Shown piece by piece: positions 882 to 4,591 of a stretch of 13,163 nucleotides of DNA. Each line of letters begins with the position of its first letter. The stretch's first letter is position 1. The stretch lies in assembly GCA_024720975.1 (NCBI GenBank), contig JANJXX010000016.1, positions 1 to 13,163 of the forward strand, written 5' to 3'. The notes under the pieces were generated by a model. The model saw only the letters and a program-made list of their open reading frames with translations. It was not told where the DNA came from and ran no database searches. Position numbers and translations under genes: made by a program. The DNA is from Thermoproteota archaeon (lineage in GTDB: Archaea > Asgardarchaeota > Njordarchaeia > Njordarchaeales > Panguiarchaeaceae).

Positions 882-1082
882 TCAGATCTCTTGTAGCAAT
901 TTTTTCAAGGATTGATTTTCTGGTAACTTATCAAGTAGCTCCTTATTGCTTTCTAGAATTCTTTGAACGTGCTGCCTTATTGCTTCTCGTATGAACTCAG
1001 AACGCGAACCGTAAAGTCCTAACTCGTAGACTATAAAGTCTATGAGTTTGACTAATTGACCGGAAATTTTTATCGTAATCAT
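882..1082 (-). CDS. Ribbon-helix-helix (CopG/Arc/MetJ family) transcriptional regulator
   Basis: MITIKISGQLVKLIDFIVYELGLYGSRSEFIREAIRQHV has an alternating beta-strand followed by the SRSEFIREAI helix motif. Start is uncertain: ATG at 1082 chosen, but the frame is open to GTG 1157. Confidence 0.85.
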   Translation of the reverse strand: MITIKISGQLVKLIDFIVYELGLYGSRSEFIREAIRQHVQRILESNKELLDKLPENQSLKKLLQEI

Positions 1083-1178
1083 TCGTGTTTGATTTTGTAA
1101 CAAAGCGTACACCCGTTTAGGGCTCTGGACTAATAGGATAAAAGTCAAAAAAAGCACTAAATAAATGTTGCTTGTTAC

Positions 1179-1412: not shown

Positions 1413-1436
1413 GCTTTTGCTGCTGGCAGCAAAAGC
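1413..1436 (-). terminator. Perfect inverted repeat/hairpin just downstream of the GTPase-longin unit
   Basis: GCTTTTGCTGC-TG-GCAGCAAAAGC (11-bp arms), 22 nt after the stop at 1459. No long U-tract follows, so terminator function is inferred from position only. Confidence 0.45.
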
Positions 1437-1458: not shown

Positions 1459-2145
1459 TTAAGTCTTTAGAAACTGCTTAACGTTATCATATATACGTTT
1501 ATTTATAATTGCATATTTTTTATCGCTTAACTTCAAGATTATAAAGTCGCTAGGATTCTTTATGAAATCATTAACCACATGCCTATTGGCTGGATAAATA
1601 ATGTTAAATCCCAAATCTAGAATCACCATGTTATTTGCGAAATATGTATCCCCTAAAATTCTGTGTTCTACCCCTTCATACTCGTGTGGTTGACTAGCAT
1701 GAGAGGAACTAATTACTCCTTTTACAGCCGTGTAAACTTTCTTGACAAGTTTTTCTATTTCATGTTTAGTCAATAGTGAAACTTCTGATAAAAGCTCAAG
1801 GACACTTGACTCTATATGAGGTTCTATCTTCGATAATATCTCTACTATTGTTTCCTTTCCTAATCTTCCATCAAAGGCTAGTACTATAGCCGCTTTCTTG
1901 GCTTTTCTTGGCAGGGTTTCGTGCCTAATCAAGAAGGGATACGTATACACTATTAGAGAACCTGCCTCAAATAAAGCTTTGTTGTTCATGTACAGCGCAC
2001 TATCTGCTATTAAATAGTTGGTCTCTAGATCCAACGGAAAGCTCTCTGGCAAGATGTGTGATATTATCGGACCTTCTACCTCATCAAACTCTGCAAACCC
2101 AGCAAAGAATAGTTTTTTGTTAATCTCCCGCTCTTGTACACTCAT
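1459..2145 (-). CDS. NPRL2/Npr2-like longin (uDENN-type) domain protein, candidate GAP
   Basis: N-terminal FAEFDEVEGPIISHILPESF matches the longin/uDENN F-x-x-x-x-G-P hairpin (human NPRL2 from memory: [20 protein letters not shown]). YPFLIRHETLPRKAKKAAIVLAFD aligns without gaps to NPRL2 [24 protein letters not shown]. Overlaps the upstream GTPase gene by 26 nt. Confidence 0.75.
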   Translation of the reverse strand: MSVQEREINKKLFFAGFAEFDEVEGPIISHILPESFPLDLETNYLIADSALYMNNKALFEAGSLIVYTYPFLIRHETLPRKAKKAAIVLAFDGRLGKETIVEILSKIEPHIESSVLELLSEVSLLTKHEIEKLVKKVYTAVKGVISSSHASQPHEYEGVEHRILGDTYFANNMVILDLGFNIIYPANRHVVNDFIKNPSDFIILKLSDKKYAIINKRIYDNVKQFLKT

Positions 2146-3130
2146 GACCTATCGTCTCTAGATAAATTTTTGAAAATAGTACTTCAACCGCCTTCATTGC
2201 ATACGCATCTAGAGCATTGGCTTTATTCCTTGCATTGATCAATGTCAGACTGATGCTATGTTCCTTGCATTGAAATATATATGTCAATATCTCGCTTTCC
2301 TCCAGTGCTAAATTTAAACGAATTTTTATGGTTCTGGACGAGTTTAGCAACCTTATGTAAGCTTCATCTTTTAAGCTATTAGCGATCTCTTTCTCGCGCT
2401 CTAAGGACTCAATAATCCTCGCAGCAAACGCCGCTGACCATGACGTTAGGCCTGAGTTACCACTAAAAAATATAGGAAGTCCCATGCCATCGCCTATAAT
2501 AACGGCCTCAGCTTCTGCGTAGTCTCTAAGATAAGTTAGCATACCTTTTATAGAATTCACCGGAATAATCTTCGATAACACAAGGTCGGCAATAACTCCG
2601 AGCAATGAAGTTGGCATGAAAATACTGGTGTCGTATAAATGCAGATTTATATGCGGAAAGGTCTTTGAAATCTTCTGCATTACGCCATTACTGAAAATAT
2701 TCTTGACGCTCAACGATCCAGTAAGATCTTGTTTATGCGCCAGAAATGCTACCTCAATCTTTTCGCGAGGGAAGGTCTTTTGGAAAACTGCTTCTACTTT
2801 ATTCATGATTTCCATGAACTCCTTCAGATAATCGTCCATTTTTGTTCTTTCCGACGCGTCAACGACATACAAAATCACTGATTTAGGATCGATAATTCCG
2901 CACAAATATTCGAAGTTTCGAGCTTTGAATCGCTTCTGGCCGGGCGTTACGAAAATGTTCACTTGAAGCGCTAAAACTAGTGTTTTGAATCGCTCAATAG
3001 ACGTCGATGGTGTCGTGTTCAATGCAAATGACCTATTCGCTGTTGCAAGGAACCTTGCTATTGAGGTCTTTCCGGAGTTTGCTGGACCCAATATGAAAAT
3101 TTTTGCTACTCCATTCGACTGCGAGACCAT
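2120..3130 (-). CDS. Rag/Gtr-like small GTPase with C-terminal roadblock domain
   Basis: G1 GPANSGKTS, switch-I Thr (PSTSIE), G3 variant VTPGQ, ILYVVDAS strand, Rag-type G4 HKQD and G5 TSI. The C-terminal ~150 aa start with helix-strand-D-x-x-G-L-P-I (LTYLRDYAEAEAVIIGDGMGLPIFFS), typical of roadblock domains. Confidence 0.85.
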   Translation of the reverse strand: MVSQSNGVAKIFILGPANSGKTSIARFLATANRSFALNTTPSTSIERFKTLVLALQVNIFVTPGQKRFKARNFEYLCGIIDPKSVILYVVDASERTKMDDYLKEFMEIMNKVEAVFQKTFPREKIEVAFLAHKQDLTGSLSVKNIFSNGVMQKISKTFPHINLHLYDTSIFMPTSLLGVIADLVLSKIIPVNSIKGMLTYLRDYAEAEAVIIGDGMGLPIFFSGNSGLTSWSAAFAARIIESLEREKEIANSLKDEAYIRLLNSSRTIKIRLNLALEESEILTYIFQCKEHSISLTLINARNKANALDAYAMKAVEVLFSKIYLETIGHECTRAGD

Positions 3131-3262: not shown

Positions 3263-4591
3263 ATGAGAAAAGCTGAGATAACACCAGCCATCGAAAAAAT
3301 TCTTGAGTCCATTGGAATAGAGATTCCAACGATAACAGACTTGCCTAAGGATCCTAAGAGTCATAAATCAGCTGCAATTATCGGAACTGCTGGTCATGTT
3401 GATCATGGAAAAAGCACACTGGCAGAAGCACTGACTGGAAAATTCCCCTCAACACATAGTGAGGAGATTCTTCGAGGAATAACTATCTTTCTAGGTTATA
3501 CACATTTAGACATATACCTATGTTGCAGAGGTAACGAAAAACCCGTAGCACTCACTTCAAATGCAAACAAAAAATGCCCTCCCGGTGCAGGGCGTCATCA
3601 CGTTCGTTGCTACTCTGTACTCGATCAACCGGGCCACGAAATTCTATTATCCACAATGCTGGCTGGCGCTTCAATAATAGACTACGGACTCATAGTAATA
3701 GCCGCAAATGAACCTTGTCCAATGCCTCAAACAAGAGAACATACTGCTGCCCTAGAGGCTATGGGCATCAAGAAAATAATCGCTGTTCAAAATAAGATAG
3801 AACTGGTAGACGAAAAGAGGCTGCTAGAAAGCTACCAAGAAATTGTGGAGTTCTTCGATAAGGAAACCAGTCTTGGTGTCCCCGTAATAATACCTGCCAG
3901 CGCGGCATTAAGGATAAATGTAGATCTAATTCTAGCCGCAATATTAGAACACTTCACACCAATGAAGAGCGATACTAGTGGACCAACAATCATGTATGTG
4001 GCAAGATCTTTCGATGCAAATCGACCTGGAACATCCTTAGATAAACTCATAGGAGGCGTTATTGGGGGCGCTCTTAAGAGTGGAGAGTTGAAAGTTGGTG
4101 ATGAGATAGAAATCAGACCAGGAATAGTGACTGAGGAGGGTGAAGTAATCCCATTAATTTCTGAGGTAGCGAGCATACGTAACGATGCTGGGGAGTTCCT
4201 GGAGGCGGCACAACCTCACATGCTTATTGGAGTAGCTACCAACTTGGATCCAGCACTCGCTAAATCTGATAGACTTGTAGGAAATATTGCTGGGCGTCCT
4301 GCGGACTTACCTGATATCGTAGATAAAATCATTGTAAAAGATATTCACATGTTCGAGAGAATAGTAGGCGCTAGGGTTGAGATGAAGAACTATCCCCTAC
4401 GAAAGAACGAAGAAATAGTCATAAGCGTGGGTACCACCACTGTTCCAGGAATCGTCGACTCTGCTCAGGATGATACAGCAGAGATTGCTTTAAGACACCC
4501 CATCGCTATGCCCAAGGGAGAAAGAGTAGCGCTCTTAAGGGAAATAGAAAGAGAATATCGACTCGTTGGGTATGGCAGGCTTTACTACTAA
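3263..4591 (+). CDS. eif2g: Translation initiation factor 2 gamma subunit (aIF2-gamma)
   Basis: GTAGHVDHGKST, HSEEILRGITIFLGY, DQPGHE, ANEPCPMPQTREH, QNKIELV, RSFDANRPG...GGVIGG and terminal RLVGYG. GGTGA Shine-Dalgarno at 3251-3255. Confidence 0.95.
   Translation: MRKAEITPAIEKILESIGIEIPTITDLPKDPKSHKSAAIIGTAGHVDHGKSTLAEALTGKFPSTHSEEILRGITIFLGYTHLDIYLCCRGNEKPVALTSNANKKCPPGAGRHHVRCYSVLDQPGHEILLSTMLAGASIIDYGLIVIAANEPCPMPQTREHTAALEAMGIKKIIAVQNKIELVDEKRLLESYQEIVEFFDKETSLGVPVIIPASAALRINVDLILAAILEHFTPMKSDTSGPTIMYVARSFDANRPGTSLDKLIGGVIGGALKSGELKVGDEIEIRPGIVTEEGEVIPLISEVASIRNDAGEFLEAAQPHMLIGVATNLDPALAKSDRLVGNIAGRPADLPDIVDKIIVKDIHMFERIVGARVEMKNYPLRKNEEIVISVGTTTVPGIVDSAQDDTAEIALRHPIAMPKGERVALLREIEREYRLVGYGRLYY

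What the first reader, a model, noticed from the sequence alone, without database searches (positions are those of the whole stretch)
1870..1950. Arginine finger of NPRL2/FLCN appears conserved (Arg80) in the archaeal longin protein
Seen: VYTYPFLIRHETLPRKAKKAAIVLAFD, with Arg80 encoded by AGA at 1908-1906. It aligns gap-free with human NPRL2 [27 protein letters not shown] (recalled), sharing P, I, H, R, A and D in register. Known: that Arg (NPRL2 R78, equivalent to FLCN R164) is the catalytic arginine finger for Rag GTP hydrolysis. The partner GTPase keeps the switch-II Gln (Q65). Inference: the GAP chemistry itself, not just the fold, predates eukaryotes.
Basis: partly seen in the sequence, partly recalled or inferred. 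Interest (0 to 1): 0.82.

Follow-up and report, generated by a model that had tools for sequence, protein, structure and literature searches.

The report
Archaeal NPRL2-like longin beside Rag GTPase
This makes a good but untested candidate for an archaeal forerunner of that switch, and the idea is already in the literature.

Summary
Window 1459-2145(-) encodes a 228-aa protein. The quoted 27-mer is residues 66-92 (bases 1950-1870), and Arg80 is AGA at 1908-1906. The recalled NPRL2 peptide is exactly human NPRL2 64-90, so R80 pairs with R78.

- **Alignment strength:** the gap-free match (6/27) is weak alone; 37 of 500 shuffles reach it.
- **Fold:** an AlphaFold model (pLDDT 84.7) is a longin fold. 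Its best solved neighbours are NPRL2/Npr2, folliculin, Lst4 and C9orf72-SMCR8 chains (Z 9-11.6), against 8.5 or less for ordinary longins.
- **Position:** R80 lies in the beta4-beta5 hairpin loop, as in NPRL2.
- **Conservation:** an Arg sits in that column in 15 of 20 homologues and within one residue in 19. One lineage has none.
- **GP motif:** the published GAP-longin "GP" motif (G25-P26) is invariant.
- **Operon:** the gene overlaps by 26 nt an upstream Rag/Gtr-type GTPase-roadblock gene that keeps Gln65. The pair is conserved in every related genome with enough flank.

Catalysis is untested, and residue-level 3D superposition could not be done. Asgard NPRL2-like longins (2020) and their GP motif plus arginine finger (2025) are published. 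This scan has also noted similar pairs on other DNA. Verdict: new member of a known kind, moderate interest.

The parts
2120..3130 (-). Rag/Gtr-type GTPase gene (336 aa, P0002): G domain plus C-terminal roadblock-like domain
   Evidence: Pfam Gtr1_RagA 54.1 bits (cut-off 22), E 1.9e-14. Atlas language-model neighbours are Asgard and fungal Gtr1/RagA clusters at 0.92-0.97. Motifs seen: GPANSGKT, FVTPGQKR, HKQD, TSI. The tail resembles the genome's own Roadblock protein (hhalign prob 60%, E 8.8e-5; shared D-x-x-G-F/L-P motif).
2936..2938 (-). Codon of Gln65, the switch II catalytic glutamine of the GTPase
   Evidence: Invariant in 9/9 orthologues. Also kept in the two more distant partner GTPases, L027 and L031.
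2120..2145 (-). 26-nt overlap of the GTPase stop with the longin start (translational coupling)
   Evidence: ORF coordinates. Related loci show an overlap, abutment or a gap of 18 nt or less.
1459..2145 (-). NPRL2/FLCN-class longin protein gene (228 aa, P0001)
   Evidence: AF2 model at pLDDT 84.7. VIA Z 11.6 to a GATOR1 NPRL2-length chain and 11.2 to folliculin.
1783..2112 (-). Longin domain, residues 12-121 (b1 13-21, b2 25-32, a1 40-52, b3 57-61, b4 64-74, b5 82-92, a2 97-121)
   Evidence: DSSP on the model, with block pLDDT mostly above 90.
2068..2076 (-). Codons of E24-G25-P26, the 'GP motif' at the start of strand b2
   Evidence: G25-P26 invariant in 20/20 homologues; E24 invariant within the order-level family. 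The NPRL2 8-35 fragment containing its G20-P21 aligns in this register in 13/13 members, with 0-7 of 500 shuffles as good. The motif is described for GAP longins in PMC12290439.
1903..1923 (-). b4-b5 hairpin loop, residues 75-81 (HETLPRK)
   Evidence: Secondary structure of the model.
1906..1908 (-). Codon AGA of Arg80, the candidate arginine finger
   Evidence: Arg in this column in 15/20 homologues, within one residue in 19/20, none in 1. In register with NPRL2 R78.
1465..1659 (-). Small C-terminal alpha/beta domain (residues 163-227) after a long helix (127-150); function unknown
   Evidence: Model. Atlas structural matches to eukaryotic NPRL2 and folliculin models extend over residues 2-197, 11-222 and 11-227. 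Weak Pfam bpX2 hit, E 0.005, below cut-off.
1413..1436 (-). Perfect 11-bp hairpin with a 2-nt loop, 22 nt after the longin stop codon; possible end of the transcription unit
   Evidence: Read directly from the sequence. No T-run follows, and the terminator scan did not list it.

Best explanation
Window 1459-3130(-) is a two-gene operon of a Njordarchaeales-type Asgard archaeon. The first gene encodes a Rag/Gtr-type small GTPase fused to a roadblock-like dimerisation domain. The second, translationally coupled gene encodes a longin-domain protein of the NPRL2/folliculin/SMCR8 class.

The most likely mechanism is as follows.
1. The longin protein, probably as a homodimer because no second paralogue was found, docks on the switch face of the GTP-bound G domain.
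2. It inserts Arg80, from the beta4-beta5 hairpin next to the invariant Glu24-Gly25-Pro26 turn, into the nucleotide pocket.
3. There the arginine neutralises the transition state, while the GTPase's own Gln65 positions the water.
4. [quoted passage not shown]

Shown here: the fold, both motifs, their conservation, and the conserved gene pairing. Inferred: binding, stoichiometry, GAP activity and the catalytic role of R80.
For: **Fold**
- The AF2 model from 15 sequences has pLDDT 84.7 and a longin topology.
- VIA-align ranks 1-16 are all one of: GATOR1 chains of NPRL2 length (Z 11.6, rmsd 3.1, 133 aligned; 6ces_N is NPRL2), yeast Npr2, folliculin (6ulg_L Z 11.2; identity), Lst4, C9orf72-SMCR8 chains, or a Loki longin.
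- Ordinary longins such as VAMP7, Sec22 and sedlin score Z 8.5 or less.
- Foldseek gives the same ranking on both models.
- Atlas structural neighbours include eukaryotic NPRL2 (TM 0.58), folliculin (0.60) and C9orf72.
- The nearest language-model cluster is an Asgard cluster in which 19% of members carry Pfam NPR2.

**Motifs**
- G25-P26 is invariant in 20/20 homologues.
- The NPRL2 GP fragment aligns in register in 13/13 members.
- An Arg is in the R80 column in 15/20 and within one residue in 19/20, across sequences only 13-53% identical.
- R74, the other Arg in the segment, is not conserved.
- NPRL2 R78 is NPR2-HMM position 84. The fragment P0011 55-95 maps to HMM positions 65-106, consistent with its Arg at position 84.
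- Four members hit Pfam Folliculin over exactly this hairpin; P0012 scores 23.4 bits against a cut-off of 23.3.

**Linkage**
- The GTPase gene lies immediately upstream on the same strand, overlapping or 18 nt or less away, in all related loci with enough flank: L004-L009, L011, L012, L014, L021-L027.
- It also does so in one distant family, L031, with a 48-nt gap. Protein identity across these loci falls as low as 24%.

**Partner GTPase.** Q65, the P-loop, HKQD and TSI are conserved.

**Eukaryotic mechanism.** It is established by structures: FLCN Arg164 next to BeF3 (PMC9473554) and SMCR8 Arg147 (PMC8213707).
Against: - No biochemical or direct structural evidence of binding or catalysis exists.
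- The gap-free R80/R78 alignment is not significant on its own (37/500 shuffles).
- P0001 itself hits neither Pfam NPR2 nor Folliculin.
- Profiles of the family do not reach any PDB longin by sequence.
- One same-order lineage (L027) keeps the EGP motif, the operon and the GTPase's PGQKR, but has no Arg or Lys in the loop.
- Four further members have the Arg shifted by one residue.
- Relative to folliculin, the family Arg is one position off.
- All three eukaryotic GAP longins work as heterodimers with a second longin. No paralogue was found in this genome, which is 81% complete.
- Longin domains more often act as exchange factors or platforms than as GAPs.
- The GTPase lacks the G3 aspartate (V61, invariant) and has an invariant Arg67 of its own, so its chemistry may differ from Rag proteins.
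Confidence: 0.5

Rival explanations
1. The longin protein binds the operon GTPase but is not an arginine-finger GAP. Instead it acts as a nucleotide-exchange factor, a dimeric platform or an effector, as most longin and roadblock modules do (TRAPP, Mon1-Ccz1, DENN, Ragulator). On this reading R80 and the neighbouring basic residues (R80, K81, K83, K84) serve binding or structure.
For: The conserved operon shows functional linkage only, not its direction. The L027 lineage keeps the pair without any basic residue in the loop. The Arg position slips by one residue in four members. The GTPase lacks the G3 Asp, which could lower Mg/nucleotide affinity and alter its regulatory needs. The literature notes that longins mostly act as GEFs (PMC10933270, PMC12290439).
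Against: The nearest structural neighbours are specifically the GAP longins, 2-3 Z units above GEF or SNARE longins. The GP motif is reported as specific to GAP longins and absent from other longins (PMC12290439), and it is invariant here. An Arg is kept within one residue in 19/20 highly diverged sequences.
Confidence: 0.3
2. It is a GAP of the MglB type. Binding of the longin dimer reorders the GTPase's own catalytic residues (Gln65, and possibly the invariant Arg67 or the Arg/Lys47 of switch I) without supplying a residue in trans. R80 is peripheral.
For: The GTPase has a PGQ switch II and no G3 Asp; from general knowledge this is reminiscent of MglA, whose roadblock partner MglB supplies no finger (background in PMC10933270, PMC9481161). 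R67 is invariant in 9/9. L027 lacks the loop Arg, yet its GTPase keeps PGQKR.
Against: The partner is a longin of the NPRL2/FLCN class, not a roadblock protein. RagC-type GTPases also have PGQ (my recollection, not tested here). The loop Arg is far better conserved than expected for a peripheral residue.
Confidence: 0.13
3. The resemblance is fold-level only and the adjacency is incidental. The protein has a function unrelated to the GTPase.
For: There is no significant sequence-profile match of P0001 to NPR2 or Folliculin. The C-terminal domain is of unknown function.
Against: Gene order, strand and coupling are conserved in all informative loci down to 24% identity, and in a second Asgard family. 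Two independent motifs sit in register with NPRL2.
Confidence: 0.05

Closest known systems
NPRL2 / yeast Npr2, the catalytic subunit of GATOR1/SEACIT (Arg78 / Arg84), GAP for RagA/Gtr1
   Same: Longin fold with the highest structural scores (Z up to 11.6). The EF-x4-GP-x-I-[ST]-x3-P segment aligns in register (9/28 identities for P0001, up to 12/28 in relatives). The Arg lies in the beta4-beta5 loop with the same spacing from both strands. The longin domain is followed by further small domains. The client is a Rag/Gtr-type GTPase with a roadblock tail.
   Different: 228 aa rather than 380. No NPRL3 or DEPDC5 counterpart was found, so it is probably a homodimer. P0001 does not reach Pfam NPR2. 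It is encoded in an operon with its presumed client. The client lacks the G3 Asp. Activity is untested.
Folliculin (FLCN, Arg164), RagC/D GAP, and SMCR8 (Arg147), Arf GAP
   Same: Same longin class (Z 10-11.2). The GP motif plus loop Arg are present. Four family members match Pfam Folliculin over the Arg hairpin. Distant relative L029 has I-R-G-G-Q-R against FLCN A-R-G-F-Q-R.
   Different: No DENN domain is recognisable. The family Arg is one HMM position after FLCN R164 (62 against 61). No FNIP- or C9orf72-like partner was found.
Asgard 'Folliculin/SMCR8-type' and 'NPRL2-like' longins already described (Traffic 2025, PMC12290439; Liu et al., bioRxiv 10.1101/2020.10.19.343400)
   Same: Asgard longins with the GP motif and the arginine finger in the same arrangement. 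The published hypothesis is that they share ancestry, and perhaps GAP activity, with the eukaryotic complexes. Pfam Folliculin matches occur in 78 of 301 sampled genomes of the phylum.
   Different: This family is small, with 14 clusters at 50% identity among 1.8 billion representatives. It is essentially confined to one order. Unlike 30/30 sampled Folliculin-type Asgard loci, it is fixed in an operon with a Rag-like GTPase, which names a client; the papers leave that question open.
MglA-MglB (bacterial Ras-like GTPase with roadblock GAP)
   Same: A prokaryotic small GTPase encoded next to a roadblock/longin-superfamily regulator. The switch II reads PGQ and the canonical G3 Asp is missing.
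   Different: The partner here is a longin of the GAP-longin class with a conserved trans Arg, whereas MglB supplies none. Pfam and language-model neighbours place the GTPase with Rag/Gtr, not MglA.

Membership tests
Longin-domain GAP subunits (NPRL2 / FLCN / SMCR8 class) | Longin fold (b-b-a-b-b-b-a) with GAP longins as nearest structural neighbours | tested here: met
   AF2 pLDDT 84.7. VIA Z 9.2-11.6 to NPRL2/Npr2, FLCN, Lst4 and C9orf72-SMCR8 chains, against 8.5 or less for other longins. Foldseek E 5e-5 to 1e-3.
Longin-domain GAP subunits (NPRL2 / FLCN / SMCR8 class) | GP motif at the loop/start of strand b2 (PMC12290439) | tested here: met
   G25-P26 begins strand 25-32. It is invariant in 20/20 and in register with NPRL2 G20-P21.
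Longin-domain GAP subunits (NPRL2 / FLCN / SMCR8 class) | Conserved arginine in the b4-b5 loop at the finger position | tested here: met
   R80 lies in loop 75-81. Arg is in the exact column in 15/20, within one residue in 19/20, and absent in L027. It is in register with NPRL2 R78 and one position after FLCN R164.
Longin-domain GAP subunits (NPRL2 / FLCN / SMCR8 class) | Residue-level 3D superposition of the Arg on NPRL2 R78 / FLCN R164 | tested here: inconclusive
   The tools return only first and last aligned residues (model 12-149 against NPRL2 7-144, 133 aligned). This is compatible with the sequence register but is not proof.
Longin-domain GAP subunits (NPRL2 / FLCN / SMCR8 class) | Significant match to Pfam NPR2 (PF06218) or Folliculin (PF11704) | tested here: inconclusive
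   P0001 has no hit. Four relatives hit Folliculin, and only P0012 just passes the cut-off (23.4 against 23.3 bits). A P0011 fragment hits NPR2 at E 0.029.
Longin-domain GAP subunits (NPRL2 / FLCN / SMCR8 class) | Heterodimer with a second, non-catalytic longin subunit (NPRL3 / FNIP / C9orf72) | tested here: not met
   Only one copy of the family is found at E up to 10 in the window's own genome, which is 81% complete. The protein after the paralogous GTPase (P0017) is not detectably a longin. A homodimer is assumed.
Longin-domain GAP subunits (NPRL2 / FLCN / SMCR8 class) | Arg-dependent stimulation of GTP hydrolysis on a Rag/Arf-family client | not testable with these tools
   Needs biochemistry. 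Only the conserved operon with a Rag-like GTPase argues for a client.
Rag/Gtr GTPases (the operon partner) | Gtr1_RagA-type G domain with HKxD (G4) and TSI (G5) | tested here: met
   Pfam Gtr1_RagA 54.1 bits against a cut-off of 22. HKQD and TSI are conserved; that these are Rag signatures rests on my own knowledge. Atlas neighbours are Gtr1/RagA clusters, including fungal GTR2.
Rag/Gtr GTPases (the operon partner) | C-terminal roadblock dimerisation domain | tested here: inconclusive
   No Pfam hit for residues 210-336. hhalign to the genome's own Robl_LC7 protein gives prob 60%, E 8.8e-5 over 39 columns, plus a shared D-x-x-G-F/L-P motif.
Rag/Gtr GTPases (the operon partner) | Canonical G3 DxxGQ | tested here: not met
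   The motif reads FVTPGQ with invariant V61 in place of Asp; Q65 is kept.

The most novel reading that the evidence does not exclude
This operon is a minimal, self-contained 'proto Rag-GATOR1' switch. A homodimeric NPRL2-like longin uses Arg80 as a true arginine finger on a homodimeric Rag-type GTPase. That would make it the first prokaryotic longin GAP. It would also show that the catalytic mechanism of GATOR1, folliculin and C9orf72-SMCR8 was already in place, with a Rag-type client, before eukaryotes.
Probability: 0.4. Interest if true: 0.75.

Novelty: new member of a known kind. Interest (0 to 1): 0.45.

Why it matters
Rag GTPases and their longin GAPs (GATOR1, folliculin) are the core of eukaryotic amino-acid sensing upstream of TORC1. 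Their origin is an open question. Papers from 2020-2025 showed that Asgard archaea have NPRL2/FLCN-like longins with the GP motif and the arginine. They could not say which GTPase these longins act on, because regulators and GTPases are rarely in operons.

Here the candidate GAP and a Rag-type GTPase are fixed in a translationally coupled pair across a whole order. The organisms appear to be thermophiles and the proteins are small. This gives a concrete two-protein system in which the hypothesis can be tested directly by wild type against R80A and Q65L assays, and by a transition-state-analogue structure. The value is as a test system; the concept itself is not new.

Tried and rejected
- **Complex prediction:** Complex prediction on the GTPase G domain 1-215, the longin 1-125, GTP and Mg scored 0.14 and 0.01 (mark 0.32). 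The tool gave 'no answer' and no interface, so this counts neither for nor against binding.
- **PDB sequence searches:** phmmer/hmmsearch with P0001, the full-length profile A2 and the longin-only profile A4 found no longin of known structure.
- **Fetching eukaryotic NPRL2 sequences for a profile-profile alignment:** The A5 profile search returned only family members plus one new one, P0019.
- **Pfam NPR2 across 301 genomes of the phylum:** only 3 weak, sub-threshold hits, none in this order.
- **R74 as an alternative finger:** not conserved.
- **R80 as merely a salt-bridge partner of invariant E24:** no covariation. Distant relatives keep the Arg without the Glu, and L027 keeps the Glu without the Arg.
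- **The protein after the paralogous GTPase (P0017) as an NPRL3-like partner:** no similarity (hhalign prob 0.05%, no Pfam hit).
- **Papers not held:** Shen et al. 2019 (PMC6393612) and Jansen & Hurley 2023 (PMC10050129).

Full report
**1. What is in the sequence**

On the minus strand, an ORF at 2120-3130 (336 aa, P0002) is followed by an ORF at 1459-2145 (228 aa, P0001). The two overlap by 26 nt.

Arg80 is AGA at 1908-1906.

A search of PDB sequences returns it as residues 64-90 of chain 6ces_N, so its arginine is R78. The gap-free pairing shares six residues.

I tested whether that is more than chance. It is the best ungapped placement of the NPRL2 fragment on P0001. However, 37 of 500 shuffled fragments do as well. 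The alignment is a lead, not evidence.

**2. Fold**

P0001 has no Pfam family apart from a sub-threshold bpX2 hit in its tail, and it has no PDB relative by sequence.

An exhaustive HMMER search of 1.8 billion representatives found a small family of 14 clusters. With 15 of these sequences AlphaFold2 gives pLDDT 84.7:
- strands 13-21, 25-32, 57-61, 64-74 and 82-92;
- helices 40-52 and 97-121.

This is the longin topology. It is followed by a long helix (127-150) and a small alpha/beta domain (163-227).

In VIA-align, ranks 1-16 fall into these groups:
- GATOR1 chains of NPRL2 length (Z 11.6, rmsd 3.1 A, 133 residues; model 12-149 against chain 7-144);
- folliculin (6ulg_L, Z 11.2);
- K. lactis Lst4;
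- C9orf72-SMCR8 chains;
- yeast Npr2;
- a Lokiarchaeal longin, 8yqg.

Chain identities rest. Ordinary longins (VAMP7, Sec22b, sedlin, sigma/zeta adaptins, DENN1) reach Z 8.5 at most.

Other searches agree:
- Foldseek gives the same ranking with both models.
- The ESM-Atlas shape search returns eukaryotic NPRL2, folliculin and C9orf72 models over nearly the whole protein.
- The nearest language-model cluster is Asgard, with 19% of members carrying Pfam NPR2.

**3. The two motifs**

R80 sits in the beta4-beta5 hairpin loop (75-81).

In an alignment of 20 homologues that are 13-53% identical to P0001, only F20, G25 and P26 are invariant. The distribution of the arginine is:
- in the R80 column in 15 sequences;
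- one residue earlier in 3;
- one residue later in 1;
- absent, with no Lys either, in 1 (L027).

R74 is not conserved.

G25-P26 opens strand b2. This is exactly the 'GP motif' that a 2025 paper describes as specific to the catalytic longins SMCR8, C9orf72, FLCN and NPRL2, and as a spatial neighbour of the arginine finger (PMC12290439).

I verified NPRL2 residues 8-35, which contain G20-P21, against the PDB. That fragment aligns ungapped in the same register in all 13 family members. Identities are 7-12 of 28, and 0-7 of 500 shuffles do as well.

For the arginine I used Pfam coordinates:
- NPRL2 R78 is NPR2-HMM position 84. The fragment P0011 55-95 maps to positions 65-106 (E 0.029), which agrees with its Arg at position 84.
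- FLCN R164, verified, is Folliculin-HMM position 61. The family Arg falls on position 62.

The Arg is therefore in register with NPRL2 and one position off folliculin, within the same loop. Four members hit Pfam Folliculin across this hairpin, and one of them just passes the curated cut-off.

**4. The partner and the operon**

P0002 matches Pfam Gtr1_RagA (54 bits). Its language-model neighbours are Asgard and fungal Gtr/Rag clusters.

Nine orthologues share GxxNxGKTS, an invariant FVTPGQKR, HKQD and TSI. Gln65 is kept. The G3 aspartate is replaced by an invariant Val61, and Arg67 is invariant.

The C-terminal 120 residues resemble the genome's own Roadblock protein. The hhalign result is prob 60%, E 8.8e-5, and the two share a D-x-x-G-F/L-P motif.

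Record titles of related loci name Candidatus Njordarchaeota. NCBI places that group in the Asgard kingdom.

The GTPase gene lies directly upstream on the same strand, overlapping or at most 18 nt away, in all nine non-self loci from the collections that have enough upstream sequence (L004-L009, L011, L012, L014). The same holds in all seven order-level genome loci (L021-L027). Protein identity drops to 24-30% across these.

There are two special cases:
- One distant member (P0014, L015) has no GTPase on the short upstream stretch available.
- A weak relative in another Asgard family (L031) also follows a homologous GTPase, with a 48-nt gap.

Folliculin-type longins are common in the phylum, with matches in 78 of 301 genomes. 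Yet none of 30 sampled loci has this type of GTPase within 1.5 kb. The linkage is therefore a property of this family.

In the phylum sample the family itself occurs in:
- 4/4 genomes of the same genus;
- 3 of 9 other genomes of the order;
- 2 of 11 genomes of one other family, and only weakly there.

**5. Mechanism and rivals**

The best reading (0.5) is a longin-type GAP that supplies R80 in trans to a Rag-like GTPase that supplies Q65 in cis. This is the mechanism shown structurally for FLCN and SMCR8 (PMC9473554, PMC8213707).

Several points count against it:
- There is no assay.
- The L027 lineage lacks the Arg.
- The Arg slips by one residue in four members.
- No NPRL3/FNIP-like second longin is found in this 81%-complete genome.
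- The switch II is atypical.

Rivals are a GEF, platform or effector role (0.3), an MglB-like allosteric GAP that uses the GTPase's own residues (0.13), and an unrelated function (0.05).

**6. Comparison with what is known, and novelty**

NPRL2-like longin proteins in Asgard archaea were described in 2020 (bioRxiv 10.1101/2020.10.19.343400). [quoted passage not shown]

A 2024 structural study noted that GTPase and longin/roadblock genes are generally not in operons, which makes pairs hard to assign.

Notes from this scan report similar Rag-plus-longin pairs in other Asgard genomes. I did not test those notes. In one of them the proposed Arg proved variable.

What this window adds is a new, compact, order-specific member whose client is named by a conserved operon. 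I class it as a new member of a known kind, with interest 0.45.

**7. Limits**

- The complex prediction gave no verdict.
- No eukaryotic NPRL2 or FLCN full sequences could be brought in for a profile-profile alignment.
- The C-terminal domains of both proteins were not folded separately.

Noticed in passing
window 2948-2950 and 2930-2932 (GTPase V61 and R67): The Rag-like GTPase has FVTPGQKR instead of DxxGQ. Val61 at the G3 Asp position and Arg67 are invariant in 9/9 orthologues. The paralogue P0018 reads IDVFPGQ, with an Asp one position earlier.
   Followed up: partly
L027:931-1758(-) with GTPase L027:1755-2714(-): A same-order lineage keeps the operon and the EGP motif. Its longin has no Arg or Lys in the b4-b5 loop (YDQQLNSYHQF), and its GTPase has NKQD/AVSV instead of HKQD/TSI. 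It is a natural 'finger-less' control.
   Followed up: partly
window 3263-4591(+) and related loci L004, L005, L006, L009, L011: The eIF2-gamma gene is divergently adjacent to the GTPase-longin operon in the window and in the closer relatives (67-77% identity). It is not adjacent in L007, L008 or L014.
   Followed up: partly
window 882-1157(-): A ribbon-helix-helix (CopG-type) protein gene lies downstream of the longin gene. Homologues lie next to the operon in L004, L006, L009, L012, L021 and L024.
   Followed up: partly
L019:1477-2343(+) and L019:2340-3086(+) (own genome, contig C24): A second Rag-like GTPase with a roadblock-like tail (P0018, 29% identical to P0002) is translationally coupled (4-nt overlap) to a 248-aa protein. 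That protein (P0017) has an N-terminal hydrophobic helix, no Pfam family and no detectable similarity to the longin family.
   Followed up: partly
own genome contig C19: 71619-71894(+) and 73748-74122(-) (L020, L018): A stand-alone Roadblock/LC7 protein (162 aa) lies about 1.9 kb from a third small GTPase (210-aa frame) that matches Gtr1_RagA at 31.9 bits.
   Followed up: no
P0016 (2173 aa): A very large metagenomic protein matches the family profile in 8 separate stretches, all to the segment corresponding to P0001 residues about 167-201. This suggests that the small C-terminal domain is a repeatable module.
   Followed up: no
window 1413-1436(-): A perfect 11-bp hairpin with a 2-nt loop lies 22 nt after the longin stop codon. 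No T-run follows.
   Followed up: partly
L029:706-1845(-) (genome G189, another Asgard family): A 379-aa longin protein has a hairpin reading I-R-G-G-Q-R, which closely mimics FLCN A-R164-G-F-Q-R. It also passes Pfam Folliculin at 29.1 bits, and no GTPase was seen in the available flank.
   Followed up: partly
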